This document shows positions 37,966 through 64,000 of a DNA stretch of 64,000 nt, in pieces; within the stretch, counting starts at the first letter, position 1, and every line of letters starts with the position of its first letter. Source of the DNA: a virus; the IMG/VR virus record IMGVR_UViG_3300045988_166055, positions 79,505 to 143,504 of that record; one strand, 5' to 3'. Below the pieces are notes generated by a model. That model was not told the DNA's origin and did not search any database. It saw only the letters and a list, made by a program, of their open reading frames with translations. Both the position numbers and the translations under genes were made by a program.

Positions 37966-38349
37966 ATGAAAATTCTTCGTCATCAAAACATAGAAGGAAT
38001 GGCGAGAGTTGGATTTACTTCAGATAGCTACGAAGTATACGTCAATACAGACGATGGTGGAAAAATTCCTCACTTTCATTACAGACTGAAAAATGATTGG
38101 AATAAGTTTCACACATGTATAAAAATTGAAAGTCCTGAATATTTTCATCATACAGGTAAAGAAAGCGTGTTGAATTCTAAACAAATTAGATCGCTCATTC
38201 GATTTCTTAAGTCATCTGTATCTCTATCACAATATAGTGAAAAATTTTCTAACAACTTTGAATTGATTATTTTTCTATGGAACATAAACAATTCGGATGT
38301 TATAGTTGATCCTGAAACAAAAATTCCTGATTACTATCAACTAAATTAA
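37966..38349 (+). CDS. hypothetical protein (DUF4160-like IPHFH motif)
   Basis: 127 aa with an AGGAGG RBS. Confidence 0.5.
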   Translation: MKILRHQNIEGMARVGFTSDSYEVYVNTDDGGKIPHFHYRLKNDWNKFHTCIKIESPEYFHHTGKESVLNSKQIRSLIRFLKSSVSLSQYSEKFSNNFELIIFLWNINNSDVIVDPETKIPDYYQLN

Positions 38350-38352
38350 ATC

Positions 38353-38373
38353 CAATCGTTATTAAGTATGTAG
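38353..38373 (+). promoter_or_regulatory. class-1 promoter-like box (long form)
   Basis: CAATCGTTATTAAGTATGTAG. Confidence 0.5.
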
Positions 38374-38536
38374 CAGCTAGTAAGCTGTAACATAAGGAGC
38401 TCACAATCCTGCCGAAATATCTTCTAGAATATTTCCGCACAATATAGAAAAGAGTGGGTGGCAAGGAATATGCCAGGAATGATTCTAAGCTTGACATGCA
38501 AGTACAACCGGGTGAGAAACTAGTCCCGGTAAATAT

Positions 38537-38611
38537 TGTCAATTAGTTTATGAGGTAAAACATTGTAGCTTAAGATACAATAAGTTGGTTCAATTCCAAC
38601 ATTGACAGCCA
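38537..38611 (+). tRNA. non-canonical tRNA-like gene with an 8-nt anticodon loop GCTTAAGA and a 3-nt variable loop
   Basis: Acceptor TGTCAAT/ATTGACA, D-arm GTTT/AAAC, T-arm GTTGG-TTCAATT-CCAAC, G73 and encoded CCA. The anticodon stem TTGTA/TACAA leaves 8 loop nucleotides. The most canonical reading is anticodon UAA on a short-variable-arm body. Confidence 0.5.
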
Positions 38612-38730
38612 TCGGTCATTGTTGACTGACGCCCACCGAATCTGCTATCTTAGATCATCAGTAGCAGATGCAGTTTTCTAGTTCTCTTTTCTGTTCATCG
38701 AACGTGTTGAAAATAAAGAGAATAATATAT

Positions 38731-38822
38731 GGCGCGATACCGAAGTGGTCATAACGGAGCGGTCTTGAAAACCGTAGGCGGTGATGAGCCGTCCGTGGGT
38801 TCGAATCCCACTCGCGCCGCCA
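38731..38822 (+). tRNA. tRNA-Ser (anticodon UGA)
   Basis: Acceptor GGCGCGA/TCGCGCC, loop CTTGAAA, long variable arm, G73, CCA. Confidence 0.9.
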
Positions 38823-39045
38823 TGCCTTTTCATTCAGCTGACATTAGATTGTCAAATTGATGAAAGTGAAACCAACTATGCTGGCAGGTTGTCGACGGGT
38901 TGAAGAGCCGTAGAGTCTAAACTATTCTCCTCTATTCTAGAAAGAGTCGGAAAGCTAGGCCCCGTAGTAGCAGCCGAAAAGTATCCTAAAACGATAGGCG
39001 TTAAAAAATGTTTTATAGGTGACAGCCCGGAAAGACGGGCATTCT

Positions 39046-39141
39046 CATCTGCTAGAACAATGGTAGTTCAGATAAGTTTATGCTTATTCCGTGTCTGTTG
39101 GTCAATCAGACATTATCTCGGTTCGAATCCGAGGCAGGTGA
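39046..39141 (+). tRNA. aberrant 96-nt tRNA-like gene A (giant extra arm; loop contains TAT; no encoded CCA)
   Basis: Acceptor CATCTGC/GCAGGTG, D-arm GAAC-AATGGTA-GTTC, T-arm CTCGG-TTCGAAT-CCGAG, A73. The anticodon arm is GATAAG-TTTATG-CTTATT (6 bp stem, 6 nt loop). The 28-nt variable region carries a GTCTG/CAGAC hairpin. Confidence 0.45.
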
Positions 39142-39473
39142 CAAATGTCTACTGGTCACCATCTACATACGACAATCAAAACTGCATAGGAGATGGAATT
39201 GGCAACGGCAGCCATGATAAGTGAAGCGATGTTCGAGTCATCAACCTGATCCTGTTCGACTCAGGCAGGGCATGGTGCAAAACTTATCAAGAGGAACTAA
39301 GTACCTGCCTCGCTTCGGATAGCAAAGAAGGCGTTAGTAGTAATCGAAAAACTACTCGCGGTTACAGGGAGGGAGCGGCGTTATAGGTAAACCTCCTGGG
39401 TGTTCTGCTATCGTGCACCTTAGAAAGGCGAAGCTTTTCAGTTAGGACTAATCCGGCCAGATAGCAAAAATAT
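39142..39473 (+). ncRNA. ORF-free structured spacer (candidate ncRNA)
   Basis: No ORF of 60 aa or more. Two T-arm-like hairpins are present (GATG-TTCGAGT-CATC 39228-42 and CCTG-TTCGACT-CAGG 39251-65), along with further GC-rich hairpins. Confidence 0.3.
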
Positions 39474-39547
39474 GCGGATATAGTGTAACGGTAACATGCG
39501 ACTCTTCCAAAGTCGTGTTGCGGGTTCGAGTCCCGTTATCCGCTCCA
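39474..39547 (+). tRNA. tRNA-Gly (anticodon UCC)
   Basis: Acceptor GCGGATA/TATCCGC, loop CTTCCAA, CCA encoded. Confidence 0.9.
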
Positions 39548-39565
39548 TAGAAGGAGGTGACAAAT

Positions 39566-39901
39566 ATGTCTGTTTATAAATGCCCAGTTTGCGGAGGAAG
39601 AGGATTTGTTACTTGCGGATTCTATTCAAGTCAAACATACGATGGAAGCTCGGTAACTAATTACAATTCAACTGAAGTTTGTAGAAGCTGTAATGGTAGA
39701 GGAATTATATTTGATGAATTCTTAGGATCAACTTCAAATAGTATTCATAGATATTGCAGTAATTGTGAAATGAACGATGGTATGGTGTATCCATCGTATC
39801 CTCCTAAATACAGATGTACTTTATCAGGTAATTTCAATGAAGGAACGCATACATGTAATCTAGATGATATTTTGTCAAAGGAAAATAACCAATCTGAATA
39901 A
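39566..39901 (+). CDS. DnaJ-type zinc-finger (CxxCxGxG x2) small protein
   Basis: CPVCGGRGFV ... CRSCNGRGII. ATG lies 9 nt after AGGAGG. Confidence 0.55.
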   Translation: MSVYKCPVCGGRGFVTCGFYSSQTYDGSSVTNYNSTEVCRSCNGRGIIFDEFLGSTSNSIHRYCSNCEMNDGMVYPSYPPKYRCTLSGNFNEGTHTCNLDDILSKENNQSE

Positions 39902-39945
39902 GTTGATAATCGGTAGGGCGCTGCGGTGTGCTTGACCGTGTTCTC

Positions 39946-39980
39946 CCGTCCGGGTGTTGGCGCATCCGGACGGCTTTTTC
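39946..39980 (+). terminator. rho-independent terminator
   Basis: CCGTCCGG 39946-53 pairs with CCGGACGG 39966-73 and is followed by CTTTTTC. Confidence 0.7.
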
Positions 39981-40028
39981 TATCTAGTAAATTATTAACG
40001 AATGATTAAGACTATTGACTTTTCATAA

Positions 40029-40049
40029 GAATCGTTATATAATATGTAC
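40029..40049 (+). promoter_or_regulatory. class-1 promoter-like box with an upstream TTGACT -35-like hexamer
   Basis: TTGACT-N17-TATATAAT geometry. The box is GAATCGTTATATAATATGTAC. Confidence 0.55.
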
Positions 40050-40096
40050 ATAAGTCAGCCAACACATCAAAAAGCTTCAAAGCTAAGGAGGAAAAA

Positions 40097-40411
40097 ATGA
40101 ACGGATACATTATCAAAGCTACATACCTCACAGGTCCGCATAAAGGAGCATCTTATTTCCTTCAAAAAGGCGGATATGTAACATCCGATCCCGATGACCA
40201 GTGGTCAGATAACTGCTACAAGACAGAAAACATCTGCAAGTCAATTTGCATGAAGCTTGAAAGAAGCAACATGGCTGAAAACGTAGTAGAGAAAAGAACA
40301 AGAGAGTATAGATCTCAAAAAGGGTACAATGTATCCGATTTCATGATCTACGAATTGATGAAATATGAACCGTATTTTGTCAAAACTGTTCACAATTCGG
40401 ATGTTTTCTAA
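40097..40411 (+). CDS. hypothetical protein
   Basis: 104 aa with an AAGGAGG RBS. Confidence 0.55.
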   Translation: MNGYIIKATYLTGPHKGASYFLQKGGYVTSDPDDQWSDNCYKTENICKSICMKLERSNMAENVVEKRTREYRSQKGYNVSDFMIYELMKYEPYFVKTVHNSDVF

Positions 40412-40424
40412 GGAGGTATTCACA

Positions 40425-40697
40425 ATGATCATCAATTCTCGTTTAGAAGCAAGGAAGTCTGTTAAGGATAACTTCGAGCTCGCTTGTAAATTTCAAATGA
40501 CAGTCATCAATGTCTTTCATAAGGACTTGATTACAGGTGAAATTGTTCTCACTGATATGTTCAGCCACGATAGTATTCAAGCCGTTACATGGAGAGACGA
40601 TTACCTTGAATCGTTAAAGAAGCTAGAGGTACCTTACATTTGCTATGTGGGAGATCATTTCACAGAATCATCTGGCTACTTAGACTTTGAGGAGTGA
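40425..40697 (+). CDS. hypothetical protein
   Basis: ATG 40425 follows AAGGAGG. The ORF-track start at 40365 is unlikely. Confidence 0.5.
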   Translation: MIINSRLEARKSVKDNFELACKFQMTVINVFHKDLITGEIVLTDMFSHDSIQAVTWRDDYLESLKKLEVPYICYVGDHFTESSGYLDFEE

Positions 40698-40702
40698 CAA
40701 TC

Positions 40703-40987
40703 ATGGATAGAAAAGTTTTTGAAGCTTTATCTTCTGCAAATAAATTGATCAACCATCAACTTGATTGTCAAAAGGCCGCTATTCCTGATATACAAAAAGC
40801 TATTGAAGAAACAGCGAAAGCTTTCAATATCACTTACAAACAAGGCCGCAGTGAAGGATTTGAATCCGAAACTATTGATGATATAGCAGAAATTTACGGA
40901 TATCTAATCGGAGCTAAAGGTGCAATTGAAGCGGTCATATCTAAGTTAGAAGGAGCAAAGAATATGATGTCTAATTTTGATAAATGA
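40703..40987 (+). CDS. hypothetical protein
   Basis: ATG 40703 follows GAGGAG. Confidence 0.5.
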   Translation: MDRKVFEALSSANKLINHQLDCQKAAIPDIQKAIEETAKAFNITYKQGRSEGFESETIDDIAEIYGYLIGAKGAIEAVISKLEGAKNMMSNFDK

Positions 40988-41135
40988 ATGAATACATGAA
41001 ACGAATAATCAAGAAATCGGCTGTAATCGGGATGGCTAAAGAACCGTCAAGAGGTGTTTTTAGATCGTTGATGGAGAAGTCCTGTCATTTCCTTTTTACA
41101 ATGACATAACTTCTCCCGGCGTTGCTAAATCCGGA

Positions 41136-41390
41136 TTGACTTACAACCACAAAAATTTGTGGCCTGATGTTAAACCTAAAGGATGCAATAAACCGTATAA
41201 TTACTACCCTCGTGGACGAGTAGAGCTAGGAAAGAAAAATTCTATCATATATGTAAATCCTAACTTCGATAAATATGATTTAGCAGAAGTTAGAAAGGAT
41301 TTTGGACTTATCAATGAGCCTAAAGTAGTATTTGATAATTCAGATCATTACAAATGTTATCTAGATGACGGATGGAAGCCAGATAAATAA
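41136..41390 (+). CDS. hypothetical protein (TTG start, weak)
   Basis: 84-aa ORF. A 41-aa ORF (40984-41109) precedes it, so this may be a disrupted gene. Confidence 0.3.
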   Translation: MTYNHKNLWPDVKPKGCNKPYNYYPRGRVELGKKNSIIYVNPNFDKYDLAEVRKDFGLINEPKVVFDNSDHYKCYLDDGWKPDK

Positions 41391-41411
41391 CAATCGTTAT
41401 ATAAAATGTAG
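41391..41411 (+). promoter_or_regulatory. class-1 promoter-like box (long form)
   Basis: CAATCGTTATATAAAATGTAG, 12 nt upstream of tRNA-Leu. Confidence 0.55.
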
Positions 41412-41422
41412 TAATCAAATTT

Positions 41423-41510
41423 GCTGGTGTGGTGGAACTGGTAAGACACTTTAGACTTAAAATCTAACGCATTAAGTTGTGTACGGGTTCGAATCCCGTC
41501 ACCAGCACCA
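41423..41510 (+). tRNA. tRNA-Leu (anticodon UAA)
   Basis: Acceptor GCTGGTG/CACCAGC, loop CTTAAAA, long variable arm, A73, CCA. Confidence 0.9.
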
Positions 41511-41543
41511 TTGTCACAGTCATCTTGATTGTGTGGATTGAAA
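41511..41543 (+). repeat. post-tRNA box, copy 1 (hairpin plus GATTGTGTGGATTGAAA)
   Basis: TTGTCACAGTCATCTTGATTGTGTGGATTGAAA. The 17-mer at 41527-43 is identical to 43048-64. Confidence 0.6.
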
Positions 41544-42539
41544 TAAGGGCATACGGAGAAAGTGGTCGTATAAACGTTGTGGTGATCAAGCAATGCCTGA
41601 AGTATCAACGTGACAGATCGGAGAGACGATCAAAAGCGAGGTTCGATTCAGGAAGGTTACAAAATGTATTCCATTTAGAACCGGGTTACGCTGTCTAAGT
41701 GGTTGCCCCTGATGGTCCGGTACGATTCCGGAGGGAATGATTGCTAGAATCATTCCTAACGCTTAGACCTATCTTTTCTATATAGCTGGCCACTATTCTG
41801 CCAATCGACGGATTGGATGAGGTTTCGACCATCAGATAAACGGCTGAAAATGTATAGGCGTTTACTGCTTAACGAAATGAAGCGGGCTGTTGTTCATCTC
41901 AGGATAAAAAGATGGCGTGCCAGCCGACATTGTTAGCCTATTTCGGTAGGTATTCGGTTAGAATAAGGAATGCTACTTATTCGGGAGCTAAATTGAATGT
42001 GCATCCTTCTGAAGTTGGAGTCTCGAAGATAACGGTTCTGAGAGATAGATGTTAAGTTAGTACTTAGCATTGAGGTTAAACTTGTCAGCTCCTAAAAGTT
42101 AATATCGAGCAAACTCACCATAAAGTGTTCTAGCTGCTAATCTAAAAGAGAATGAGATGATTAGAAGGATTGAGCGAATCTAGATGCTCGTTATTATATT
42201 TGCCATCTGCTGGTCCTACACAGCAGTGAGGATGGTAGGACATCCAATAACCAAGCAATCGGTGGAGATAGCGCCGGACACCTCGCCTGTTGAGGAGGGA
42301 ATTTGAACAAAAAGGTAAGATATGTTCACACCAGAACATAAGGGCATATGGAATGGTGAAAATACTTACTAAACCAATCTGCTAGGTTATCTGAGAGAAT
42401 GTCAGGATTTGAGGCAGATAAGTGATAGAATGCAGTACTCTCATTTGACTTTGAGAAGAACCTTTCATATTATCACTTAATGAGTTCTATGCGTTGCAAA
42501 CACTTCTCTCATTCGGGATAGAAAAGAAGGGTTAGACAT
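41511..42539 (+). ncRNA. candidate large structured ncRNA (about 1.03 kb) between tRNA-Leu and tRNA-Glu
   Basis: No RBS-preceded ORF. Exact long-range helices pair 41709-17 with 41827-35 and 42419-27 with 42471-79. A pseudoknot-type complementarity pairs 42213-19 with 42235-41. There are many local hairpins. Confidence 0.45.
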
Positions 42540-42614
42540 GGCGCCTTGGTCAAGTGGTTAAGACACGGCCCTTTCACGGCTGTAACATGGGTTCGAGTCC
42601 CGTAGGCGTCACCA
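42540..42614 (+). tRNA. tRNA-Glu (anticodon UUC)
   Basis: Acceptor GGCGCCT/AGGCGTC, loop CTTTCAC, CCA. Confidence 0.9.
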
Positions 42615-42705
42615 TCACATCCTATAGGATGTGTTAAGTGTGATATATGGTAACAGATTCCGACCTAAGCGCACGGGTCTTCTAGAGGCCTTCGGAATCG
42701 AATAT

Positions 42706-42781
42706 CCGGGTGTAGCTCAGATGGTAGAGCGCGTGGTTTGGGACCACGATGCCGCTGGTTCGAATCCAGTCACTCGGACCA
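42706..42781 (+). tRNA. tRNA-Pro (anticodon UGG)
   Basis: Acceptor CCGGGTG/CACTCGG, loop TTTGGGA, CCA. Confidence 0.9.
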
Positions 42782-42801
42782 TTTTTTCATTCAATTTTTA
42801 T

Positions 42802-42822
42802 TCATCGTTATATAACATGTAG
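42802..42822 (+). promoter_or_regulatory. class-1 promoter-like box (long form)
   Basis: TCATCGTTATATAACATGTAG. Confidence 0.5.
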
Positions 42823-42924
42823 GAGGCATCCATCTCGGATACAATACTACAACGTAGATAGAGAAAACATTTTCTCTGTAATGAGAGGTAAGATACTCTT
42901 GAAGTCGCCTAAAAAAATAAATTA
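42823..42924 (+). ncRNA. candidate small RNA (about 100 nt) between two class-1 boxes
   Basis: No start codon. It contains the hairpin AGAGAAAA-CA-TTTTCTCT and ends in an A-run. The next class-1 box begins at 42925. Confidence 0.3.
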
Positions 42925-42945
42925 GCATCGTTATATATCATGTAG
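42925..42945 (+). promoter_or_regulatory. class-1 promoter-like box (long form)
   Basis: GCATCGTTATATATCATGTAG, 11 nt upstream of tRNA-Thr. Confidence 0.55.
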
Positions 42946-42955
42946 CATAAAATAT

Positions 42956-43031
42956 GCTGGATTAGCTCAGTTGGCAGAGCGCGTGATTTGTAATCTCGAG
43001 GTCAAGGGTTCGAGTCCCTTATCCAGCTCCA
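42956..43031 (+). tRNA. tRNA-Thr (anticodon UGU)
   Basis: Acceptor GCTGGAT/ATCCAGC, loop TTTGTAA (one U-U mismatch in the stem), CCA. Confidence 0.85.
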
Positions 43032-43064
43032 TTGCCACAATTTATTAGATTGTGTGGATTGAAA
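43032..43064 (+). repeat. post-tRNA box, copy 2
   Basis: TTGCCACAATTTATTAGATTGTGTGGATTGAAA. Confidence 0.6.
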
Positions 43065-43123
43065 CCATCTCATCTCCTTCCTGATCCAGTTTCTGGTCTG
43101 GATAAACAAAACCGGGTAAATAT

Positions 43124-43219
43124 CCTGCCTTAGCATAACGGTAGTGCAACCGGCCTATACCCGGCATAAGGCTCTAGATTGGGGCAAGATCTCGGTTCGA
43201 ATCCGAGGGGCAGGACCAT
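43124..43219 (+). tRNA. aberrant 96-nt tRNA-like gene B (giant extra arm; loop CCTATAC; CCA encoded)
   Basis: Acceptor CCTGCCT/GGGCAGG, D-arm GCAT-AACGGTA-GTGC, and a T-arm CTCGG-TTCGAAT-CCGAG identical to gene A, with A73. The anticodon stem CCGG/CCGG carries loop CCTATAC. The variable region is 25 nt. Confidence 0.45.
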
Positions 43220-43412
43220 TAGCGCCCATACAAGCTTAAAAGTATGGTGAGGAATCAAGTTACTCAAGTTAGGTCAGCTTGACATCCAACAGTAAGGACC
43301 TACGACAGGTGAGAATGACGGATTAGTCCTTTCTTGAATAAACAGAACCTGACCCATTGGCGCCGAGGGTGAACGCTGCTTGAAGGTAAAGAAAGGCAAT
43401 AAAACTTTACAT

Positions 43413-43489
43413 GGGAGCATAGCTCAGTTGGTTAGAGCGCATGACTGTTAATCATGATGTCGAAGGTTCAAGTCCTTCTGTTCCCGCCA
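43413..43489 (+). tRNA. tRNA-Asn (anticodon GUU)
   Basis: Acceptor GGGAGCA/TGTTCCC, loop CTGTTAA, CCA. Confidence 0.9.
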
Positions 43490-44036
43490 GCGCCTATATC
43501 AGTCTAGGTCTTGAAAGGATATAGAGACCAATGAATTATCTTTTTAGAAAGGTGATTTATCTGATGAAAAGAGATCATCAACTCTCGGCGAATTAGAACT
43601 TGACGAATTTGTCTTTTGACAAAAAGAAGCAGCAGGTTCGTCTCTGCGCTTAATCTACTGAACTGCAATGTTGATGTAAGCGGTAATTAGGTTCCCAAAC
43701 CAATTCAGGGAGATTAAGAAAAAGTTTGCTTATTTAGTAGAAAGAGGGTTGGAGGGGCACAGCAAGTAGAATAAAAGGACCTATCCAGAATGCCAGGATT
43801 GACACCATAAAATGCTGTCAATGAGAGCATCAGTATTAGACCACGGTGAAGCGATGTGATGATGATAGGAATTGGGACTATCTAATCTCATCTAATGCCG
43901 ATATACATCTGGTTGTGTAGGTAGGCAACAAATTTGAAAGCTATAACAGGATGTGCTAAGGAGTAGAAGTAATAACCTCTGTCTACTGTGTATTTCTGCT
44001 AAATAAGTTCAACTTTTTTATTAAGGGGTTTGAAAA
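43490..44036 (+). ncRNA. ORF-free structured spacer (about 550 nt), second candidate large ncRNA
   Basis: No ORF of 60 aa or more on either strand in the track. Interleaved helices 43494-500/43518-24 and 43507-11/43525-29 give pseudoknot topology. Hairpins lie at 43608-13/43618-23 and 43798-804/43816-22. Confidence 0.35.
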
Positions 44037-44252
44037 ATGAAAACAATCACTTTTATCTGTTATGATAAATATCCAAAAACAACAAAAAGGTCTCACATTT
44101 TTAAGAAGCGTTTTTCTTCGTTAGCAGATGTTGCTAAATTCTTGAAAGTTTCAAATAAAATCTATTTGCAAAATCCGATGAACGAATTTTCAAAAGACGA
44201 ACTAAGAATTCTTTCAATGAAAGTTCGATCGTTAAATAAAATGAAGGTGTAG
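44037..44252 (+). CDS. hypothetical small basic protein
   Basis: 71 aa with a GGGG RBS-like stretch upstream. Its 3' end overlaps tRNA-Lys by 10 nt. Confidence 0.35.
   Translation: MKTITFICYDKYPKTTKRSHIFKKRFSSLADVAKFLKVSNKIYLQNPMNEFSKDELRILSMKVRSLNKMKV
44226..44246 (+). promoter_or_regulatory. degenerate class-1-like box
   Basis: CGATCGTTAAATAAAATGAAG matches the 41391 box at 17 of 21 positions. It runs into tRNA-Lys, so function is doubtful. Confidence 0.25.
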
Positions 44253-44318
44253 CTCAGTCGGTAGAGCACCTGCCTTTTAAGCAGGGTGTCGGGAGTTCGA
44301 ATCTCCTCACCTTCACCA
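44243..44318 (+). tRNA. tRNA-Lys (anticodon UUU)
   Basis: Acceptor GAAGGTG/CACCTTC, loop CTTTTAA, CCA. Confidence 0.9.
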
Positions 44319-44324
44319 AAATAT

Positions 44325-44409
44325 GCACCTGTGGTGGAACTGGCAGACACGCTTGACTTAGGATCAAGTGCCTTCAGGTTTAAGGGTTCGAGTCCCTTCA
44401 GGTGCACCA
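44325..44409 (+). tRNA. tRNA-Leu (anticodon UAG)
   Basis: Acceptor GCACCTG/CAGGTGC, loop CTTAGGA, long variable arm, A73, CCA. Confidence 0.9.
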
Positions 44410-44414
44410 TATAT

Positions 44415-44491
44415 GGAGGATTAGCTCAGCTGGTTAGAGCGCTTGCTTTACACGCAAGAAGTCGCAAGTTCGAATCTTGCATTCTCCACCA
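44415..44491 (+). tRNA. tRNA-Val (anticodon UAC)
   Basis: Acceptor GGAGGAT/ATTCTCC, loop TTTACAC, CCA. Confidence 0.9.
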
Positions 44492-44497
44492 TTATTT

Positions 44498-44574
44498 GGC
44501 CAAGTAGTTCAGTTGGTTAGAACGCCAGCCTGTCACGCTGGAGGTCACGGGTTCGAACCCCGTCTTGGTCGCCA
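44498..44574 (+). tRNA. tRNA-Asp (anticodon GUC)
   Basis: Acceptor GGCCAAG/CTTGGTC, loop CTGTCAC, CCA. Confidence 0.9.
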
Positions 44575-44740
44575 TTGTTGGTTTTACTATTTTATCAATG
44601 TCAGAACGGGGCGAGTCCGTTCAAGTCGCTCAAATCGGGTTGGCCACCAGGAGAGTCAGATTAAAATGGGTTGAGGCGGAGAGTTGGAAAGCCTAGTAGC
44701 TACATTAGGCATGCATAGTGTAGCTACCTCAAAAAAATAA

Positions 44741-44815
44741 GGGTCCGTATTTCAATGGGAGAAAGCTTCCTTTGCACGGAAGAAGTTGCGTGTTCGAGTC
44801 ACGTCGGATCCACCA
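44741..44815 (+). tRNA. tRNA-Ala (anticodon UGC)
   Basis: Acceptor GGGTCCG/CGGATCC with the G3:U70 identity pair, loop TTTGCAC, CCA. Confidence 0.9.
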
Positions 44816-44936
44816 TTTGAGACTTCAGACAAGTTGGTTAGAATGTCTGATTAAACGACATACAATGAGACGATACCAAGACTTTAGTTCGTTACAGAGC
44901 GGTGACTGAATGTCAAATCCCTTATGTCATTTATCT

Positions 44937-45013
44937 GGGCCTTTAGCTCAGTTGGTTAGAGCATCCGGCTCATAACCGGATCGTCCCGGGTTCGAATCCC
45001 CGAAGGCCCACCA
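44937..45013 (+). tRNA. tRNA with anticodon CAU (elongator Met or lysidine-Ile2)
   Basis: Acceptor GGGCCTT/AAGGCCC has 1:72 paired, so it is not an initiator. Loop CTCATAA, CCA. Confidence 0.85.
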
Positions 45014-45168
45014 TAATTGGTACAACACGACTGTAACGGCTCCCGCGGTTTAGAGTTGTATCCCGTTTCTTAGTTGAAGCGTGTAGTGTCAAGAGAGCCT
45101 ACCAGACGAGCCATATGGGCACCACCTAGCGGTGAAAAGATATGTGGGACGATCGTCAATTATTATAT

Positions 45169-45245
45169 GCCTCAGTAGCTCAGTTGGATAGAGCAACTTC
45201 CTTCTAAGCAGTAGGCCACAGGTTCAAGTCCTGTTTGAGGTGCCA
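45169..45245 (+). tRNA. tRNA-Arg (anticodon UCU)
   Basis: Acceptor GCCTCAG/TTGAGGT (two G-U pairs), loop CTTCTAA, CCA. Confidence 0.8.
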
Positions 45246-45319
45246 GAAAGCACATTAAATAACGTGGAATAAAACTGGAGGTTGTGATGGGACGTTGAGC
45301 CTCCTTTACAAAACAATAA

Positions 45320-45388
45320 GATGCTTTACGCCAGTTGGTAGACGACTCTTGTACAGAGAAGACGCTGGTTCGAATACAGCAAGCATCA
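45320..45388 (+). pseudogene. degenerate tRNA-like element (shortened anticodon arm; no CCA)
   Basis: Acceptor GATGCTT/AAGCATC, D-loop AGTTGGTA, T-loop TTCGAAT. Only 19 nt lie between the D and T arms (CTCT-TGTAC-AGAG). Confidence 0.35.
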
Positions 45389-47784: not shown

Positions 47785-48726
47785 ATGGAACTTATTGAGC
47801 CTAATGTAGAAATGATTACGGAAAGAGATATCTACAAACGAATTGAACTTGCGGGGAGAACCTGCTATAAGTCAGAAGACAAAATTAAAGAAGACTCAGC
47901 AAAAAAGTTTGTTAAAGCTATGATTAAGAGTAATCATACTGCTATGCTGGAGCATGCGTCACTGGTATTTCAAGTAGATTCATATTTTGTTTGGGAAAAA
48001 ATTAAGAGATGTAATAGAAGATATCTGAATCTAACTGAATGCTACGTTCCTACAGGATACAACAACCAAGAAAGACGGCTTCTTGTTTCAGGTAACATTC
48101 GAGCTATCAACGAATCCGAAAATCCTTTTCTGCTTAAAGCTATGGTAAATGCAGGATACGGTGACGCAGTATATGGTGACCCTACAGTAGAAAAGGATAG
48201 GGAATACGATGTAGATGCTAGAGTTGTCAATCTCATTGATCTTGAAAATATTCAGAGAGAAGAGATCTTGAATCACTACTATCCTTCTTTCAGATTAATT
48301 ACAGATAGGGCAGTAACTCATGAGATGGTTCGTCATCGTCCCGCAAGTTTTGCTCAAGAATCTCAGAGATATGTAAACTATGAAAAGAAAGGTGGAGTTC
48401 AGTTCATTAAACCTTATTGGTTTGATTCAGCATCTGCTACTGAAAAGATTTCGTTCAAATTTTCTTTGCAGAATTCTGAAGGAATTTACAAGGAGCTAGT
48501 TGAATCCGGTCTGAAGCCGCAGGAAGCAAGAGGAGTTCTTCCTAATGCTACAAAGACAGAAATTGTTATGACAGCTCCCATGTATGAGTGGCAGCATTTT
48601 CTTAATCTTAGATTTTTTGGAACAACTGGAACACCTCATCCTGATATGAAGAACATTGCAAGATACATCTATAACTATCTGAAAGATGATGAACTTGTAA
48701 ATAAATATGGAACAATTGTCCTATAA
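47785..48726 (+). CDS. thyX: flavin-dependent thymidylate synthase
   Basis: ThyX signature HEMVRHRPASFAQESQRYV (RHR..S....S.RY). Confidence 0.85.
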   Translation: MELIEPNVEMITERDIYKRIELAGRTCYKSEDKIKEDSAKKFVKAMIKSNHTAMLEHASLVFQVDSYFVWEKIKRCNRRYLNLTECYVPTGYNNQERRLLVSGNIRAINESENPFLLKAMVNAGYGDAVYGDPTVEKDREYDVDARVVNLIDLENIQREEILNHYYPSFRLITDRAVTHEMVRHRPASFAQESQRYVNYEKKGGVQFIKPYWFDSASATEKISFKFSLQNSEGIYKELVESGLKPQEARGVLPNATKTEIVMTAPMYEWQHFLNLRFFGTTGTPHPDMKNIARYIYNYLKDDELVNKYGTIVL

Positions 48727-59786: not shown

Positions 59787-61004
59787 ATGCCTCAGCTAAG
59801 TTATTCGTGGCATCAAGATGAATGGTCTTATAGCGCTGAAGGTGTGCTAAAGAAAATAGGCACATTCACAAACAATACAAGCAAAAAGATAAAAATTTCT
59901 TCAGTTGAATTATACCTTGGAACGCTTAGAGGCTATGTAAACTCTGGAACAGTATTTACAGGTAACGGAGGTTCAATAGATACTTATATCCAACTCGGTG
60001 GCAATGAATCAGATACTAAAACTGTTTCAAACGTGTGCGGAACTGGAGGTAGTGGAGATAACATATGGGCAGATACAAACAGCTGTCAAAAATACACTTT
60101 TACTATTTCCCCAATAACATTATCAGTTGGGTCATCTGCTGATCTATATATAATGACTCCTTCTCTTTCTGAAGGGAGTACCGGAAAAGTTCTTGTTATG
60201 CAGAAGTCTACCGGTAGAGCAAACTATGAAGAAATCCAAGATACATTTACTATAACATACAATGCTAATGGATATGGAACAGCGCCCTCAGCGCAAACTG
60301 GGCAGCTACCATTAAAAGTAAAGTCAGGTCCAACAGGATATGACCCAGATTTGTATCTGTTTAATTATTGGAATACAAAATCAGATGGTACAGGTACAAC
60401 ATATACTGTTGGATCTTCATACAACAATCAATCAAATATTACATTATATGCAATATGGAGTTACGGATCTTGCTATTTAGCGAACGGAGGAATAATTTAT
60501 CAATCACCGGGGCTCCAATACCCAGAAGGAGCTTCGTTTGAAAAAGACATAACATGGTCAACAGCTTACACTAGAAAGGTCTTTATACCTTCAAATGATG
60601 TATGGCAGGTAGACTTCAATCAAGAAGAAACAGGTGAAATTTTTCAATACTGGGCAGATAGCTCAGACGGATCTGGTAATAAGTACTATCCTGGAGATCA
60701 ATATACTATAAGCGGTGGTCATAAGTTTTACGCTATATCAAATTTACCAAATTATACTGTCAAATGGTTTGATGGATATACAGATAAAGTATTAAAAACT
60801 ATGACAGTTAAGCAAGGAACTACAATACCAAAATCTGACTATCCTCCAGAACCTGTTAGACAAGGTTACAAATTTGCTGGATGGTACGGAGATACAACAA
60901 ATATTAGAGGAAATTTGAATGTTATCGCTATGTGGGGAGATTCGCCTGTTTGGATAATGACAACAGATGGATGGAAGAAATACATCCCAAAGGAGAATAA
61001 GTGA
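59787..61004 (+). CDS. adhesin-like protein with Listeria-Bacteroides (Flg_new) repeats
   Basis: FTITYNANGYGTAPS...YLFNYWNTKSDGTGTTYTVGSSY...ITLYAIW and YTVKWFDG...VRQGYKFAGWYGDTTNIRGNLNVIAMW. Confidence 0.55.
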   Translation: MPQLSYSWHQDEWSYSAEGVLKKIGTFTNNTSKKIKISSVELYLGTLRGYVNSGTVFTGNGGSIDTYIQLGGNESDTKTVSNVCGTGGSGDNIWADTNSCQKYTFTISPITLSVGSSADLYIMTPSLSEGSTGKVLVMQKSTGRANYEEIQDTFTITYNANGYGTAPSAQTGQLPLKVKSGPTGYDPDLYLFNYWNTKSDGTGTTYTVGSSYNNQSNITLYAIWSYGSCYLANGGIIYQSPGLQYPEGASFEKDITWSTAYTRKVFIPSNDVWQVDFNQEETGEIFQYWADSSDGSGNKYYPGDQYTISGGHKFYAISNLPNYTVKWFDGYTDKVLKTMTVKQGTTIPKSDYPPEPVRQGYKFAGWYGDTTNIRGNLNVIAMWGDSPVWIMTTDGWKKYIPKENK

Positions 61005-61008
61005 TTTT

Positions 61009-61770
61009 ATGGGCTGGGAATACTACAACGGAAAACCACAATTCTATTCATATCCTAACTATGTATTCAATACTAGTGCAAGCAAAGTATATTTGAAAAA
61101 CGGAGTAGACTCCGGTACTGGGTCGCTTCATTATTGGTCATGGCAGACAGGTTCACTTTTCAAAGATAATGATATCGTTATAAAATATACAAACGATACA
61201 GAAGGCGCTATAAGATTAAAAAGTTACAGAATAAAGACAACAGCTTGTGATTCAGGTGGATTAAGCTACTGGGCTTGGGGAGGATTAGTTGAAACACCAT
61301 GTGTAGGATATGGAGGAACTTACTACACATATGTTAATGTAACAAATGACAACGGAAAGACATACGAAAGTTCATCTGTTGTGAATGTAAATGTTCCAAA
61401 TCTTTCAAAAACAAACATGAATTACAGAGGAAGCGATGCCACGCACAGTGCGTCATTTGGAAACCCTCCCCAATATCCTGAAGGTCAACCTGGTGGAATG
61501 ACAGGAAGAATATTTGAATTAACTGATTGCCCTGCAATTCAACCTGGCGGATATGCGTATGTTCATCTTGGAGTCGGTCATTTTAATGACCCTTCAACTG
61601 ACCCAATATCTACTGTTATACGATTCAAGATGGATCCAGGTGAAATGGAAGTAATTGCAGAGCCTGCAGAAAATCCTGTTATCTGGAGATTTGGCGAAGA
61701 CAAGGATTGGCATCTAGTTAAAACACTGTTTAAGATGACTTCGTCAGGCTGGGAGCAGATAGATAATTGA
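61009..61770 (+). CDS. hypothetical structural protein
   Basis: ATG 61009 follows AAGGAG. Confidence 0.45.
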   Translation: MGWEYYNGKPQFYSYPNYVFNTSASKVYLKNGVDSGTGSLHYWSWQTGSLFKDNDIVIKYTNDTEGAIRLKSYRIKTTACDSGGLSYWAWGGLVETPCVGYGGTYYTYVNVTNDNGKTYESSSVVNVNVPNLSKTNMNYRGSDATHSASFGNPPQYPEGQPGGMTGRIFELTDCPAIQPGGYAYVHLGVGHFNDPSTDPISTVIRFKMDPGEMEVIAEPAENPVIWRFGEDKDWHLVKTLFKMTSSGWEQIDN

Positions 61771-62225: not shown

Positions 62226-62717
62226 TTGAAGAAATTGATAAGACATGACGATTCAATTCTATGCATGGCTAACGTTAGAGGAAAAGACATAGCGAACCCA
62301 GGACCATTGAACTTTTCTTTCTATTTCTCATCCGGAGCTGGATACCCTCATGAAATTAGAGTAAAGCCCGTGTTTAACCCTGAAAAGCTTCTAAAGAGCA
62401 AAGTAGGTAACCTAAAATTATGTGACGATTGGGAGTATCTGCATGGCGTTGATGATGATCATGTAGATAACAAAGATATAAGAAAGATGATAGCCTTCTT
62501 CAAAAAGTACATTGTTCTTTTTTGCATGGTTTGGGATGAGCAGATGCAAGAAGTAACTTTGCAACATTACTTTGAAGGGCAAGCTGATTTCAACGAATTG
62601 CTTGAAGATATTGATTTTTATCCTAAATACAAAAATAAGATGAATAATATTCATGACGTAGAGGAACTTGAGACCTTCTGCAGAAAAAACAATCTGGTTA
62701 ATTTCTACGGAAACTAA
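62226..62717 (+). CDS. hypothetical protein (TTG start)
   Basis: 163 aa. RBS AAAGGATGG. Confidence 0.45.
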   Translation: MKKLIRHDDSILCMANVRGKDIANPGPLNFSFYFSSGAGYPHEIRVKPVFNPEKLLKSKVGNLKLCDDWEYLHGVDDDHVDNKDIRKMIAFFKKYIVLFCMVWDEQMQEVTLQHYFEGQADFNELLEDIDFYPKYKNKMNNIHDVEELETFCRKNNLVNFYGN

Positions 62718-62750
62718 AACAACATGGTCAACACTATGATGATATATAAT

Positions 62751-62803
62751 ACATGTGTTTTGTAAATTTCCTGAAACCCACATGTAAAACAAAAATAAAG
62801 GAG
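62751..62803 (+). promoter_or_regulatory. preQ1-I-riboswitch-like pseudoknot leader sequestering the yhhQ SD
   Basis: P1 pairs ACATGTG 62751-57 with CACATGT 62779-85. Loop TTCCT 62768-72 can pair with AGGAG 62799-803 (the SD). GAAACC lies just 5' of the P1 3' strand. An A-rich tail AAAACAAAAATAA lies between P1 and the SD. Confidence 0.4.
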
Positions 62804-62813
62804 AAATATACAT

Positions 62814-63563
62814 ATGAATAAACTAAAACAAATCATTGTGACAGAAGCAAAGGACTACAAAATCCTTCTAAGAAACGCTCCAACTGTTACAATGATTTTC
62901 TTTACTCTCAGCGTAGTTCTGATGAACATTTTTGCACAAAAAGAACTGCTAAATATTGAATACCTTGCTCTTGACTGTGGATTCCTTCTGTCTTGGATGA
63001 GTTTCCTTTGCATGGATATGCTTACAAAGAGATTCGGAGCAAGATCAGCTATCAAGCTTTCGTTGTTTGCAGTTTTCATGAATCTTATCTGTTCAGGAAT
63101 TTTCTTCATTGTTTCAAGAGTTGGAAACAATTGGAGCGTTTTCTACGATTTCAATGATAGTATGGCGAATGATGCAGTGAACGGAGTCTTTGGTGGAACA
63201 TGGTATGTACTAGTAGGATCAATGACTGCATTCATCGTCTCTGCTATTGTAAACGCTATTCTAAACGATGGAATTGGAAAGCTTATCAAAAAGAAGAATT
63301 TCTTTGAATATGCAATGAGATCATATGTTTCTACAGCTATCGGTCAATTTGTAGATAATTTTGTTTTTGCTACAATTGTTTCTAAAGTTTTCTTTGGATG
63401 GACATGGATTCAAGTTGTGTTTTGCTCGCTTGCAGGCGCAGCAGCTGAACTTCTTTCTGAGGTTGTATTCAGCCCTGTAGGATTCAAAGTTTGCAAGCGA
63501 TGGGAAAAAGAAGAAGTAGGAAAAGATTACATAGATTTTACTAAGGAGGCTGCTAAGACTTGA
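62814..63563 (+). CDS. yhhQ: queuosine-precursor (preQ0/preQ1) transporter, YhhQ/VUT family
   Basis: Polytopic membrane protein with ...YVSTAIGQFVDNFVFATIV... typical of DUF165/YhhQ. Confidence 0.7.
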   Translation: MNKLKQIIVTEAKDYKILLRNAPTVTMIFFTLSVVLMNIFAQKELLNIEYLALDCGFLLSWMSFLCMDMLTKRFGARSAIKLSLFAVFMNLICSGIFFIVSRVGNNWSVFYDFNDSMANDAVNGVFGGTWYVLVGSMTAFIVSAIVNAILNDGIGKLIKKKNFFEYAMRSYVSTAIGQFVDNFVFATIVSKVFFGWTWIQVVFCSLAGAAAELLSEVVFSPVGFKVCKRWEKEEVGKDYIDFTKEAAKT

Positions 63564-64000
63564 TTGTAATTGTTACAGGTTCGTCTAATGGCATTGGTCG
63601 TGAAACAGCTAAGAAATTTCTTGACAATGGAGATATTGTTCACGGAATTGACATTAGTCCTGAATATGATAAGGAGTATCTACAAACTAAAGTAGGAAGA
63701 TATTTTCATCATGTAGCAGATGTAGGAAAGTTTGAACAGCTTCCTACCCTCTACGATCCATCTATTCTTATCAATAATGCAGGATGTCAGAACGGTCCTG
63801 ACGATATCAGAACAAATCTTATTGGTGTAATGAATTGCACAAAGAAGTATGCTCTGTCAAACAGAAAGATCAAATCTGTTGTAAACCTTGCATCAGTTTC
63901 TGCTCACAATGGTTGCGAATTTCCTGAATACACAGCGTCTAAAGGTGGAGTCCTATCTTATACTGTTTGGACAGCCAAACAAATTGCAAAGTATCAAGCA
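63560..64000 (+). CDS. short-chain dehydrogenase/reductase (3' end outside the window)
   Basis: TTG start 10 nt after TAAGGAGG. Motifs VTGSSNGIG (TGxxxGxG), NNAG, and YTASKGG (YxxxK). Confidence 0.7.
   Translation, partial: MIVIVTGSSNGIGRETAKKFLDNGDIVHGIDISPEYDKEYLQTKVGRYFHHVADVGKFEQLPTLYDPSILINNAGCQNGPDDIRTNLIGVMNCTKKYALSNRKIKSVVNLASVSAHNGCEFPEYTASKGGVLSYTVWTAKQIAKYQA

What the first reader, a model, noticed from the sequence alone, without database searches (positions are those of the whole stretch)
62751..63563. preQ1-riboswitch-like pseudoknot upstream of a phage yhhQ (queuosine-precursor transporter), followed by an SDR
Seen in sequence, in the 96-nt leader of yhhQ:
- A 7-bp helix: ACATGTG 62751-57 with CACATGT 62779-85.
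- Loop nucleotides TTCCT (62768-72) are complementary to the SD AGGAG (62799-803).
- GAAACC lies immediately 5' of the helix 3' strand.
- An A-rich tail (AAAACAAAAATAA) links the helix to the SD.

This layout (stem-loop, an AAC(C) element immediately 5' of the P1 3' strand, A-rich tail, and loop-to-SD pairing giving an H-type pseudoknot) is the architecture of class I preQ1 riboswitches. Here the first loop and the tail are longer than in the textbook examples.

Established knowledge: YhhQ-family transporter genes are among the genes controlled by preQ1 riboswitches in bacteria.

Inference:
- This is a phage-borne ligand-sensing leader.
- Together with the adjacent SDR (63560 to the window end), it may be the edge of a 7-deazaguanine salvage or DNA-modification module.
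Basis: partly seen in the sequence, partly recalled or inferred. Interest (0 to 1): 0.65.

Follow-up and report, generated by a model that had tools for sequence, protein, structure and literature searches.

The report
Phage preQ1-type riboswitch, extended-loop variant
The 96-nt leader of a phage queuosine-precursor transporter gene holds a real, conserved RNA pseudoknot that is very likely a preQ1-sensing riboswitch of an undescribed long-loop form, and a second copy just past the window controls the phage's own complete preQ1 synthesis operon.

Summary
The element is one of at least 32 distinct phage leaders. They share an invariant loop core and a P1 helix with strong compensatory covariation: the 5 core pairs are 100 % paired, and the covariation score is 0.369 against 0.083 in shuffles. 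Loop–SD pairing is supported by a perfectly correlated indel (32/32). The CC:GG pairs are also retained where the partner is not an SD.

The motif precedes only YhhQ-family transporters and queF (preQ1 synthase) operons. It is coupled either to SD sequestration or to terminator/antiterminator platforms, which is typical of a riboswitch aptamer. A contig 100 % identical to the window's end shows leader–yhhQ–SDR–leader copy 2–queF–queC–queD–queE–folE.

Rfam's preQ1-I, -II and -III models do not detect it. It has a conserved 8-12-nt insertion (UGUA…) in loop L1 and (C/U)C rather than AC before the P1 3' strand. I therefore file it as a new variant of preQ1-I, closest to type III, and not as a member of a described type. 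Ligand binding is untested.

The parts
62745..62750 (+). TATAAT, a -10-like box directly upstream of P1 and the possible promoter of the yhhQ transcript
   Evidence: Read from the sequence. AT-rich 'TATATA'-like boxes lie 3-20 nt upstream of P1 in most relatives. The sigma-70 scan listed no complete promoter here. This part is inference only.
62750..62757 (+). P1 5' strand (UACAUGUG); the conserved core is the 5 pairs 62753-62757
   Evidence: It forms an exact 8-bp inverted repeat with 62779-86. Across the family the 5 core pairs are 100 % paired in 32 distinct sequences, with 8-16 double-sided changes at four of them, and the top G (62757) is invariant. RNAalifold predicts the same helix.
62758..62768 (+). 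Extended loop L1: the invariant UU(U/A)UGUA (62758-64) plus a variable 1-5-nt spacer. This is the feature that sets the variant apart from described preQ1-I types
   Evidence: G8 to A15 are invariant or nearly so in alignment A3. L1 is 2-3 nt in described types (PMC11625349, PMC10622847). UUUUGU 62758-63 is complementary to ACAAAA 62789-94. That complementarity is kept in register across the family: 93.7 % paired against 61-68 % when slid, with one-sided changes only.
62769..62772 (+). P2 5' strand, the anti-SD UCCU (U62768 can add a U•G pair)
   Evidence: CCU is invariant and the preceding U is present in 20 of 22 sequences. The number of U's after CC matches the spacing between AAAUAA and AGG in 32 of 32 sequences.
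62773..62778 (+). Loop L2 (GAAACC). C62778 sits at the position of the ligand-specificity cytidine of preQ1-I
   Evidence: The pattern GA(A/C)(A/G)(C/U)C is conserved and the last C is invariant. The position corresponds to C17 of the Bsu and Can aptamers and C15 of the Tte aptamer (PMC11625349). The dinucleotide before P1 3' is CC in 21 and UC in 11 sequences, and never AC.
62779..62786 (+). P1 3' strand (CACAUGUA)
62787..62798 (+). A-rich tail L3 (AAACAAAAAUAA). The last 10 nt, A-Y-AAAAA-UAA, are fixed in length and sequence, while the 5' part varies in length
   Evidence: Alignment A3. One lineage (L013) tolerates a hairpin inserted between P1 and this segment.
62799..62803 (+). Shine-Dalgarno AGGAG, which also serves as the P2 3' strand
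   Evidence: It is complementary to 62768-72 and invariant across the family. The ATG follows 10 nt later.
62751..62806 (+). The whole aptamer plus expression platform, as delimited by covariance model R1
   Evidence: 75.6 bits, E about 1e-12, and the only strong hit in the window.
62814..63563 (+). Controlled gene: a YhhQ/Vut_1-family queuosine-precursor transporter, 249 aa
   Evidence: Pfam PF02592 at 79.2 bits. TIGR00697 at 48.1 bits, just below its 50.95 cutoff. More than 2,000 homologues were found.
63560..64000 (+). SDR-family oxidoreductase, cut by the window end and 223 aa in full. It is translationally coupled to yhhQ (TTGA overlap)
   Evidence: Pfam adh_short at 58 bits. The full-length gene is seen in L001 and L247. 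No specific subfamily was assigned.

Best explanation
The leader at 62751-62806 is a translational OFF riboswitch. It most likely senses preQ1, or preQ1 and preQ0, and is built on the class I preQ1 H-type pseudoknot plan.

Proposed fold:
- P1 (62750-57/62779-86) is closed by an invariant G-C pair that forms the floor of the ligand pocket.
- C62778, immediately 5' of the P1 3' strand, pairs with the ligand.
- The A-rich tail lies along P1.
- Ligand binding stabilises P2, in which loop UCCU (62769-72) pairs with AGGA of the Shine-Dalgarno (62799-802). Ribosomes are then kept off the yhhQ mRNA when the precursor pool is high.

A second copy about 240 nt beyond the window end does the same for queF-queC-queD-queE-folE. 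The phage therefore feedback-regulates both import and de novo synthesis of preQ1.

Shown here:
- The conserved structure and the covariation in P1.
- The correlated indel that supports P2.
- The exclusive gene association.
- The two kinds of expression platform.
- The gene order.

Inferred:
- The identity of the ligand.
- The OFF logic.
- The role of the extended L1.
For: 1. P1 covaries. The 5 core pairs are 100 % paired in 32 distinct leaders, 4 of them with 8-16 double-sided changes. The covariation score is 0.369 against 0.083±0.014 in shuffles (0/500) and 0.04-0.11 in slid registers. RNAalifold independently predicts the same helix.

2. P2 is supported in two ways. CCU, CCUU and CCUUU in the loop match 0, 1 and 2 extra nt before AGG in 32 of 32 sequences. 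In the terminator-type leaders of L238-L240 the 3' partner is not an SD, yet CC:GG complementarity is kept.

3. The gene association is exclusive. All 32 distinct instances precede either YhhQ-family transporters (TIGR00697 up to 146 bits) or QueF (TIGR03139 at 146-166 bits, cutoff 87).

4. The aptamer is modular. The same aptamer is joined to SD sequestration in the window and to antiterminator/terminator platforms upstream of queF. The scanner detected the terminators in L240 and L239. The L240 leader folds with z = -4.0.

5. It resembles preQ1-I.
- It has UU atop P1, CCU:AGG as in type III, a cytidine before P1 3', and an A-rich tail.
- Cellular orthologous yhhQ genes carry leaders whose best Rfam hit is RF00522.
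- The phage-derived model finds those cellular leaders at the right position, at 14-23 bits, in about a dozen loci.
- yhhQ is an established preQ1-I type III target (PMC10622847).

6. The genomic context fits. L247 is 100 % identical to window 62600-64000 and continues SDR-[copy 2, 65.5 bits]-QueF-QueC-QueD-QueE-HEG-FolE. The gene families were confirmed in the 94 %-identical relative.
Against: - No Rfam preQ1-I, -II or -III hit appears even at E<=10 on 151 nt, nor on a second long-loop locus.
- The hairpin loop is 21 nt, against about 10-13 nt in described types.
- The dinucleotide before P1 3' is CC in the window. Described types have UC (type I) or AC (types II and III).
- The P2 pairs never vary, so there is no true covariation for the pseudoknot.
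- A register-specific L1-tail complementarity crosses P2 topologically and is not explained by the simple model.
- The single-sequence fold is not significant (z = -1.5), and its MFE pairs the 5' arm with the start-codon region instead.
- No binding or reporter data exist.
Confidence: 0.8

Rival explanations
1. The fold and mechanism are the same, but the cognate ligand is not preQ1. The extended L1 and the (C/U)C specificity dinucleotide might retune the pocket to preQ0, to two stacked ligands as in type I, to queuine, or to another 7-deazapurine intermediate.
For: - YhhQ prefers preQ0 (PMC10622847).
- The pocket-proximal dinucleotide differs from all described types.
- A conserved 7-nt L1 element has no counterpart in known structures.
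- UU plus UC is the signature of type I, which binds two ligands, and 11 of 32 sequences have it.
Against: - The regulon (transporter plus queF-queCDE-folE) ends at preQ1, which is the classic preQ1 feedback regulon.
- The specificity cytidine and the G-C floor are invariant, as in preQ1-binding aptamers.
- Known class I aptamers already bind both preQ0 and preQ1.
Confidence: 0.12
2. The element is a conserved operator for a phage or host RNA-binding protein or small RNA. It would be a translational repressor site on Q-pathway mRNAs and not a metabolite sensor.
For: - The loop sequences are invariant (UUUUGUA, CCUGA), as is typical of protein-recognition sites.
- T4-like phages use translational repressors (own knowledge).
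- There is no match to the Rfam riboswitch models.
Against: - The element occurs in phages of very different size and gene content (35-200 kb contigs, transporters 53-96 % identical), but always with Q-precursor genes.
- It is fused to two different expression platforms that both exploit the same CC:GG pairing.
- It shares detailed anatomy with preQ1-I.
- No candidate regulator gene is linked to it.
Confidence: 0.05
3. It is an ordinary hairpin (an mRNA stabiliser, a processing site, or a terminator of the upstream gene), and the SD complementarity is coincidental.
For: The helix contains the palindrome ACATGT. The single-sequence fold is not significant.
Against: - No U-run follows the hairpin and the scan found no terminator.
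- Covariation, the invariant loop, the correlated indel and the gene association all argue against it.
- The core occurs once in the window against 0.00 expected.
Confidence: 0.02

Closest known systems
preQ1-I type III riboswitch (for example the E. coli yhhQ leader, PDB 8FZA; PMC10622847)
   Same: - It controls yhhQ by translational SD sequestration.
- UU follows the P1 5' strand.
- P2 is CCU:AGG, preceded by a pyrimidine.
- The A-rich tail is of variable length.
- A G-C pair forms the pocket floor.
- A cytidine lies directly before the P1 3' strand.
   Different: - Type III has the smallest, pyrimidine-rich loop (L1 about 3 nt), whereas here L1 is 9-14 nt with a conserved UGUA(A).
- Type III has AC before P1 3', whereas here it is CC or UC (GC in three divergent copies).
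- Type III is almost confined to gamma-proteobacteria, whereas these leaders are in phages with strong Firmicute-style SDs.
- The Rfam model that covers class I does not score this leader.
preQ1-I type I (Carnobacterium antarcticum; PMC8752633), which binds two stacked preQ1
   Same: - UU atop P1.
- UC before P1 3' in 11 of 32 family members.
- The loop begins UU.UGUAA, which resembles the type I consensus UUCGuAA seen in the Rfam alignment.
- The tail is A-rich.
   Different: - The window has CC, not UC.
- The conserved tail CUA (C31 reads the second ligand) is replaced by AUAA.
- The loop is 8-10 nt longer.
- P2 here involves a separate CCU segment, not the GUAA region.
preQ1-I type II (B. 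subtilis queCDEF and T. tengcongensis leaders)
   Same: - The same regulon logic applies: a preQ1 aptamer in front of a queCDEF-type operon.
- L2 is 6 nt, as in the Bsu aptamer.
- Both transcriptional (Bsu-like) and translational (Tte-like) platforms occur in the phage family.
   Different: The defining AC before P1 3' is absent in 32 of 32 sequences, and L1 is much longer.
Phage 7-deazaguanine gene clusters (phages 9g, CAjan, Dp-1, HVTV-1; PMC6884629)
   Same: The phage encodes folE, queD, queE, queC and queF. Phages encoding a QueF homologue, such as Dp-1 and HVTV-1, carry dPreQ1 in their DNA.
   Different: - No riboswitch is mentioned in that study's main text.
- Here a transporter and an SDR are added, and the cluster is under two aptamer copies.
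- No dpdA or tgt was found in the roughly 74 kb examined.

Membership tests
preQ1-I riboswitch (Rfam RF00522), class level | A P1 helix of about 5 bp, closed by a conserved G-C pair that forms the pocket floor | tested here: met
   The top G-C is invariant in 32 of 32 sequences. The four pairs below it covary and are 100 % paired.
preQ1-I riboswitch (Rfam RF00522), class level | A specificity cytidine immediately 5' of the P1 3' strand | tested here: met
   The C at alignment column 32 (C62778) is invariant.
preQ1-I riboswitch (Rfam RF00522), class level | A P2 pseudoknot between the hairpin loop and the 3' tail, overlapping the SD or the expression platform | tested here: met
   UCCU:AGGA is complementary in all sequences. 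The indel is perfectly correlated in 32 of 32. CC:GG is kept in terminator-type leaders where GG is not an SD. Caveat: the pairs never vary, so there is no base covariation.
preQ1-I riboswitch (Rfam RF00522), class level | An A-rich L3 tail between P1 and P2 | tested here: met
   A-Y-AAAAA-UAA is conserved.
preQ1-I riboswitch (Rfam RF00522), class level | A compact aptamer: L1 of 2-3 nt and a hairpin loop of about 10-13 nt | tested here: not met
   The loop is 18-23 nt (21 in the window), and L1 is 9-14 nt with the conserved UU(U/A)UGUA.
preQ1-I riboswitch (Rfam RF00522), class level | Scores at or above the curated gathering threshold of RF00522 (39 bits) | tested here: not met
   No hit at gathering or at E<=10 on 151 nt. 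The control cellular leader L071 scores 19.6 bits, E = 0.043.
preQ1-I riboswitch (Rfam RF00522), class level | Located upstream of queuosine biosynthesis or salvage genes | tested here: met
   It precedes only YhhQ-family transporters and queF(-queCDE-folE) operons.
preQ1-I riboswitch (Rfam RF00522), class level | Binds preQ1 selectively and switches gene expression | not testable with these tools
   This needs ITC, in-line probing and reporter assays.
preQ1-I type I | UU after the P1 5' strand, UC before the P1 3' strand, and a conserved C-U-A in the 3' tail | tested here: not met
   UU is invariant. However, the window has CC (UC in only 11 of 32), and the tail has AUAA in place of CUA (definitions).
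preQ1-I type II | AC before the P1 3' strand | tested here: not met
   0 of 32 sequences have AC. The dinucleotide is CC in 21 and UC in 11.
preQ1-I type III | UU after P1, AC at the specificity position, a short pyrimidine-rich loop, and a fully paired AAGG/AGG SD | tested here: not met
   UU and CCU:AGG are present. AC is absent and the loop is long and not pyrimidine-rich (definitions).
preQ1-II (RF01054) and preQ1-III (RF02680) | A match to the class model (the P4 hairpin of class II, or the HLout pseudoknot with distal SD of class III) | tested here: not met
   Neither model hits at E<=10, and no extra hairpin lies between P1 and the SD in the window.
YhhQ / queuosine precursor transporter (Pfam PF02592, NCBIfam TIGR00697) | Scores above the family cutoffs | tested here: inconclusive
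   Pfam Vut_1 scores 79.2 against 27.2, so it is met. The TIGR00697 equivalog scores 48.1 against 50.95, narrowly missed. Substrate was not tested.

The most novel reading that the evidence does not exclude
This may be a fourth, so far undescribed and apparently phage-restricted subtype of the class I preQ1 aptamer. Its conserved L1 insertion would form an extra tertiary element, possibly the register-specific L1-tail helix. It might change ligand stoichiometry or preference (preQ0 against preQ1). Large gut and rumen phages would use it, singly, in pairs and in tandem, to autoregulate a complete virus-encoded preQ1 import and synthesis module during infection.
Probability: 0.5. Interest if true: 0.7.

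Novelty: new variant of a known kind. Interest (0 to 1): 0.62.

Why it matters
- Riboswitch families carried by viruses are few. This appears to be a widespread phage-borne aptamer family, with at least 32 distinct sequences in phage contigs of 35-200 kb. It regulates an auxiliary metabolic pathway from within the virus.
- It shows that phages do more than carry preQ0/preQ1 genes. They place both import (yhhQ) and de novo synthesis (queF-queCDE-folE) under metabolite feedback. This bears on how 7-deazaguanine DNA modification or Q-tRNA supply is timed in infection.
- For RNA structure, the variant keeps the minimal preQ1-I pocket elements but adds a conserved 7-nt loop element that current structures do not explain. 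Existing covariance models miss it, so it is a concrete target for ITC and crystallography, and for improving annotation models.

Tried and rejected
- **Rfam at gathering threshold.** Scans of the window and of 34 related loci found no preQ1 family. This proved uninformative, because textbook-looking cellular leaders also fail the threshold.
- **GenBank phages.** Neither DNA nor protein gave a match.
- **Single-sequence MFE.** It proposes pairing of 62752-58 with the start-codon region. That pairing is not conserved in relatives, so I rejected it.
- **Terminator and promoter scans of the window leader.** They found no terminator and no full sigma-70 promoter.
- **MAFFT alignment of the leaders.** It mis-registered three long-armed sequences and the CC segment. 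I replaced it with a hand-registered alignment in which N stands for gaps.
- **L1-tail helix as the true P2.** It is register-specific but shows only one-sided changes, is broken in L238, and crosses the better-supported CCU:AGG helix. I left it as unresolved.
- **Metagenome pattern scan.** By the covariance model, 116 of 120 hits were chance matches, and the 4 real ones sat on short or cut contigs. It added nothing on gene association.
- **Search for tgt/dpdA.** No PF01702-type hit appeared among 61 window ORFs, among 9 ORFs beyond folE in the relative, or among the precomputed families of L247.
- **Original type-classification paper (McCown et al. 2014).** It is not held, so I could not check it for similar variants.
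- **Scripting sandbox.** It was lost, so later analyses used the native tools only.
Full report
**1. The observation**

- ACATGTG 62751-57 pairs with CACATGT 62779-85. The repeat finder extends this to an exact 8-bp inverted repeat, 62750-57/62779-86.
- Loop TTCCT 62768-72 is complementary to AGGAG 62799-803.
- GAAACC 62773-78 abuts the 3' arm.
- AAAACAAAAATAA links the helix to the SD, and the ATG is at 62814.
- The downstream ORF is a Vut_1/YhhQ-family protein. It scores 79 bits in Pfam, and 48.1 bits for TIGR00697 against a cutoff of 50.95.
- An SDR starts at 63560, overlapping the yhhQ stop.

Taken alone, the leader does not fold significantly better than shuffles (z = -1.5). The case therefore rests on comparison.

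**2. Existing models do not see it, but that test is weak**

Rfam finds no preQ1-I, -II or -III hit at gathering or at E<=10 on a 151-nt target. I ran positive controls on leaders of cellular orthologues of the same yhhQ clade under identical conditions.
- One type (for example GGAUG-UUCCUUGCCAAAC-CAUCC-GAAAAAAA-CAAGGAGG) has RF00522 as its best hit, but at only 19.6 bits against a gathering score of 39.
- Another, very common type has preQ1-II as best hit, at 23 bits against 47.
- Large gathering-threshold scans of 34 loci found none of them.

So orthologous genes do sit behind preQ1-like aptamers, and the curated thresholds are too strict for these tiny RNAs. The window's leader is nevertheless less model-like than the cellular ones.

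**3. It is a conserved, covarying RNA family**

The transporter has more than 2,000 homologues. IMG/VR loci with 53-96 % identical transporters carry the same leader with different helix sequences: ACAUGUG/CACAUGU, CCUGUG/CACAGG, GACCAG/CUGGUC, GAGGG/CCCUC and others.

A gene-independent scan of IMG/VR with the conserved loop core was filtered for flanking complementarity and an SD. It gave 32 distinct full motifs.

On a hand-registered alignment (A3):
- The five core P1 pairs are 100 % paired.
- Four of them show 8-16 double-sided changes, and the top G-C is invariant.
- The covariation score is 0.369, against 0.083±0.014 in shuffles (0/500) and 0.04-0.11 in slid registers.
- RNAalifold on an independent MAFFT alignment predicts exactly this helix.

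The loop is UU(U/A)UGUA - 1-5 nt - (U)CCU(U)(U) - GA(A/C)(A/G)(C/U)C. The tail ends in A-Y-AAAAA-UAA followed by (N0-2)AGGAG.

**4. The pseudoknot**

The P2 pairs (UCCU:AGGA) never vary, because the 3' strand is the SD. Base covariation is therefore impossible. Two other observations support P2.
- *Correlated indel.* Loops with CCU, CCUU or CCUUU have 0, 1 or 2 extra nucleotides between AAAUAA and AGG in 32 of 32 sequences. This keeps L2 and the end of L3 in register with the P1-proximal end of P2, which is the geometry of the preQ1-I pocket ceiling.
- *Retention without an SD.* In three more distant phages the 3' partner is not an SD at all, yet CC:GG complementarity is retained (see section 6).

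A further complementarity links L1 and the tail: UUUUGU 62758-63 with ACAAAA 62789-94. It is kept in register across the family, 93.7 % paired against 61-68 % when slid. It shows only G-C to G•U changes, is broken in L238, and crosses P2 topologically. I leave it as an unexplained tertiary or alternative pairing.

Positions 11 (U to A) and 30 (A to G) of the alignment change together in three otherwise different leaders, L009, L016 and L018.

**5. Gene association**

Every one of the 32 distinct motifs is followed by an SD and a start codon of one of two gene types:
- a YhhQ/Vut_1-family transporter, with several divergent subfamilies and TIGR00697 scores up to 146 bits; or
- QueF, the preQ1 synthase (TIGR03139 at 146-166 bits, cutoff 87).

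In the window's lineage the motif occurs twice, 1.49 kb apart.

A contig that encodes exactly the window's YhhQ (L247) is 100 % identical to window 62600-64000. It continues as follows:
- SDR;
- aptamer copy 2 (65.5 bits, L247 11427-11481, which is 240-294 nt beyond the window end);
- QueF, QueC, QueD(PTPS) and radical-SAM QueE;
- a NUMOD3 homing-endonuclease-like ORF;
- GTP cyclohydrolase I.

In the 94 %-identical relative the families were confirmed against NCBIfam:

| Protein | Score (bits) | Cutoff (bits) |
|---|---|---|
| QueC | 167 | 150 |
| QueD | 83.5 | 89 |
| QueE | 245 | 260 |
| FolE | 226 | 162 |

**6. Two expression platforms on one aptamer**

Upstream of queF in L240 and L239 the aptamer tail (…AAUAAC-AAGG / …AAUAAC-AGG) runs straight into GGUUACA(C).
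- That segment can pair with the 5' arm of a downstream hairpin followed by a U-run. The scanner calls this hairpin a terminator in both loci: L240 7265-7300 and L239 7399-7433.
- The arms differ between the two loci by compensatory changes.
- The L240 leader folds with z = -4.0, and its centroid shows P1 plus the terminator.
- L238 has an analogous arrangement, read by eye but not called by the scanner. It is followed by a second, different long-loop preQ1-like aptamer directly before queF, making a tandem.

This is the classic design. Ligand-stabilised P2 sequesters the antiterminator strand, the terminator forms, and transcription stops. An aptamer joined to either SD sequestration or a terminator switch is characteristic of riboswitches. 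It is hard to reconcile with a protein operator.

**7. Relation to known classes**

Definitions are taken from PMC11625349, PMC8752633 and PMC10622847.

The phage leader shares these features with class I:
- the G-C floor pair;
- the cytidine before P1 3';
- the A-rich L3;
- the loop-to-SD P2;
- UU atop P1 (types I and III);
- a P2 of CCU:AGG preceded by a pyrimidine (type III, which controls yhhQ in E. coli).

The covariance model built only from phage leaders (R1) finds the RF00522-like cellular yhhQ leaders at the correct place in about a dozen loci, at 14-23 bits.

It differs in three ways:
- L1 is 9-14 nt with a conserved UGUA(A), instead of 2-3 nt.
- The dinucleotide before P1 3' is CC (21 of 32, including the window) or UC (11 of 32), and GC in three divergent copies. 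It is never AC.
- The type I tail element CUA is absent.

It thus fails the defining features of each described type and the Rfam threshold, while working like a class I aptamer. I classify it as a new variant of a known kind.

I found no description of such a variant, or of phage preQ1 aptamers, in the searchable literature. The original classification paper could not be read.

**8. Biological setting**

- The window is from a T4-like myovirus. It has the Gp23 capsid, gp25 and gp10 baseplate proteins, a prohead protease, a sigma-70-region-2 protein, SHMT, ThyX and an NAD-ligase.
- It carries 17-18 tRNA genes, including the Q-family tRNA-Asn(GUU) and tRNA-Asp(GUC).
- Among the 80 best cellular yhhQ loci, the phage-type leader appears only in L030. 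That is a 142-kb contig binned into a MAG and probably a phage.
- No tgt or dpdA was detected in the roughly 74 kb inspected. Whether the preQ1 goes into DNA or into tRNA is therefore unknown.

**9. Verdict**

- Confidence that this is a functional structured cis-regulator: about 0.95.
- Confidence that it is a preQ1/preQ0-responsive OFF riboswitch: about 0.8.
- Confidence that it is an undescribed subtype: about 0.5, limited by literature access.

Interest is moderate to high. The mechanism is familiar, but the extended loop, the phage restriction, the paired and tandem use, and the control of a complete virus-encoded preQ1 pathway are new and directly testable.

Noticed in passing
L247 11427-11481 (about 240-294 nt beyond window position 64000): A second copy of the same aptamer (65.5 bits) lies between the SDR and queF. 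It controls queF-queC-queD-queE-folE in the same genome.
   Followed up: yes
L014 5447-6958 (also L013): The queF gene here encodes 503 aa. An intein-like insert with a homing-endonuclease-like region sits exactly at the catalytic Cys motif (EFTSKC|VTGD…VHN|CPKTGQ).
   Followed up: partly
L247 13810-15163: A NUMOD3 (homing-endonuclease-type) ORF lies between queE and folE. GTP cyclohydrolase I is called as two ORFs (74 + 191 aa), which suggests a mobile-element insertion, or a frameshift, in folE.
   Followed up: no
L037-L102 (for example L038 3899-3998), upstream of cellular yhhQ in rumen and gut Clostridia: A very common leader has the form hairpin + AAGCAG-UUCGGGUCCGAUAUC-CUGCUU-GUAAAAUAUUAAAACCAAAGGAG. 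Its best Rfam hit is preQ1-II, at only 23 bits (gathering 47) and without the P4 hairpin. It shares UU…UCC-GAUAUC with the phage type, so it may be another unmodelled preQ1 aptamer variant.
   Followed up: partly
L238 7533-7610: A second, different long-loop aptamer (CCGCAG-UUUGGUUUUACUUUCCCAGUC-CUGCGG…CUAAAGGAGG) sits in tandem behind the terminator-type aptamer, directly before queF. Rfam does not recognise it.
   Followed up: partly
L017 3838-4001 and L240 4921-5160: In two phages the aptamer's SD is followed by a short ORF (8 and 18 codons), and in L017 by a hairpin and in L240 by a long inverted repeat. Only then comes yhhQ with its own SD. These may be uORF-coupled control or remnants of rearrangement.
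   Followed up: no
alignment A3 columns 11 and 30 (window equivalents 62760 and 62776): The L1 change U to A and the L2 change A to G occur together in L009, L016 and L018. These have unrelated P1 sequences and also an extra or changed nucleotide in the tail. This may mark a tertiary contact.
   Followed up: partly
window 37690-45388: A cluster of 17-18 tRNA genes.
- ARAGORN calls 38537-38611 with an undetermined two-base anticodon.
- tRNA-Ile(UAU) at 43124-43218 is 95 nt long.
- Rfam calls an 18th, weak tRNA at 45320-45388 that ARAGORN does not report.
   Followed up: no
window 36021-37265, 47785-48723; L247 17161-17631: The phage encodes serine hydroxymethyltransferase, ThyX and a dCMP/cytidine-deaminase-like protein. 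These one-carbon and pyrimidine genes could indicate further nucleotide or DNA modification.
   Followed up: no
L015 7816-7852: An Rfam abiF RNA hit above its gathering score (40.6 against 37 bits) lies in a related phage contig, about 3 kb downstream of yhhQ.
   Followed up: no
L247 19510-20163; one ORF in the set scanned: A PemK/MazF-like toxin domain protein is encoded in the phage, about 9 kb beyond yhhQ.
   Followed up: no
window 59787-61770: Two overlapping ORFs (405 and 267 aa) lie upstream of the module. The first carries Listeria-Bacteroides repeat (Flg_new) domains and is probably a host-recognition or tail-fibre protein.
   Followed up: no
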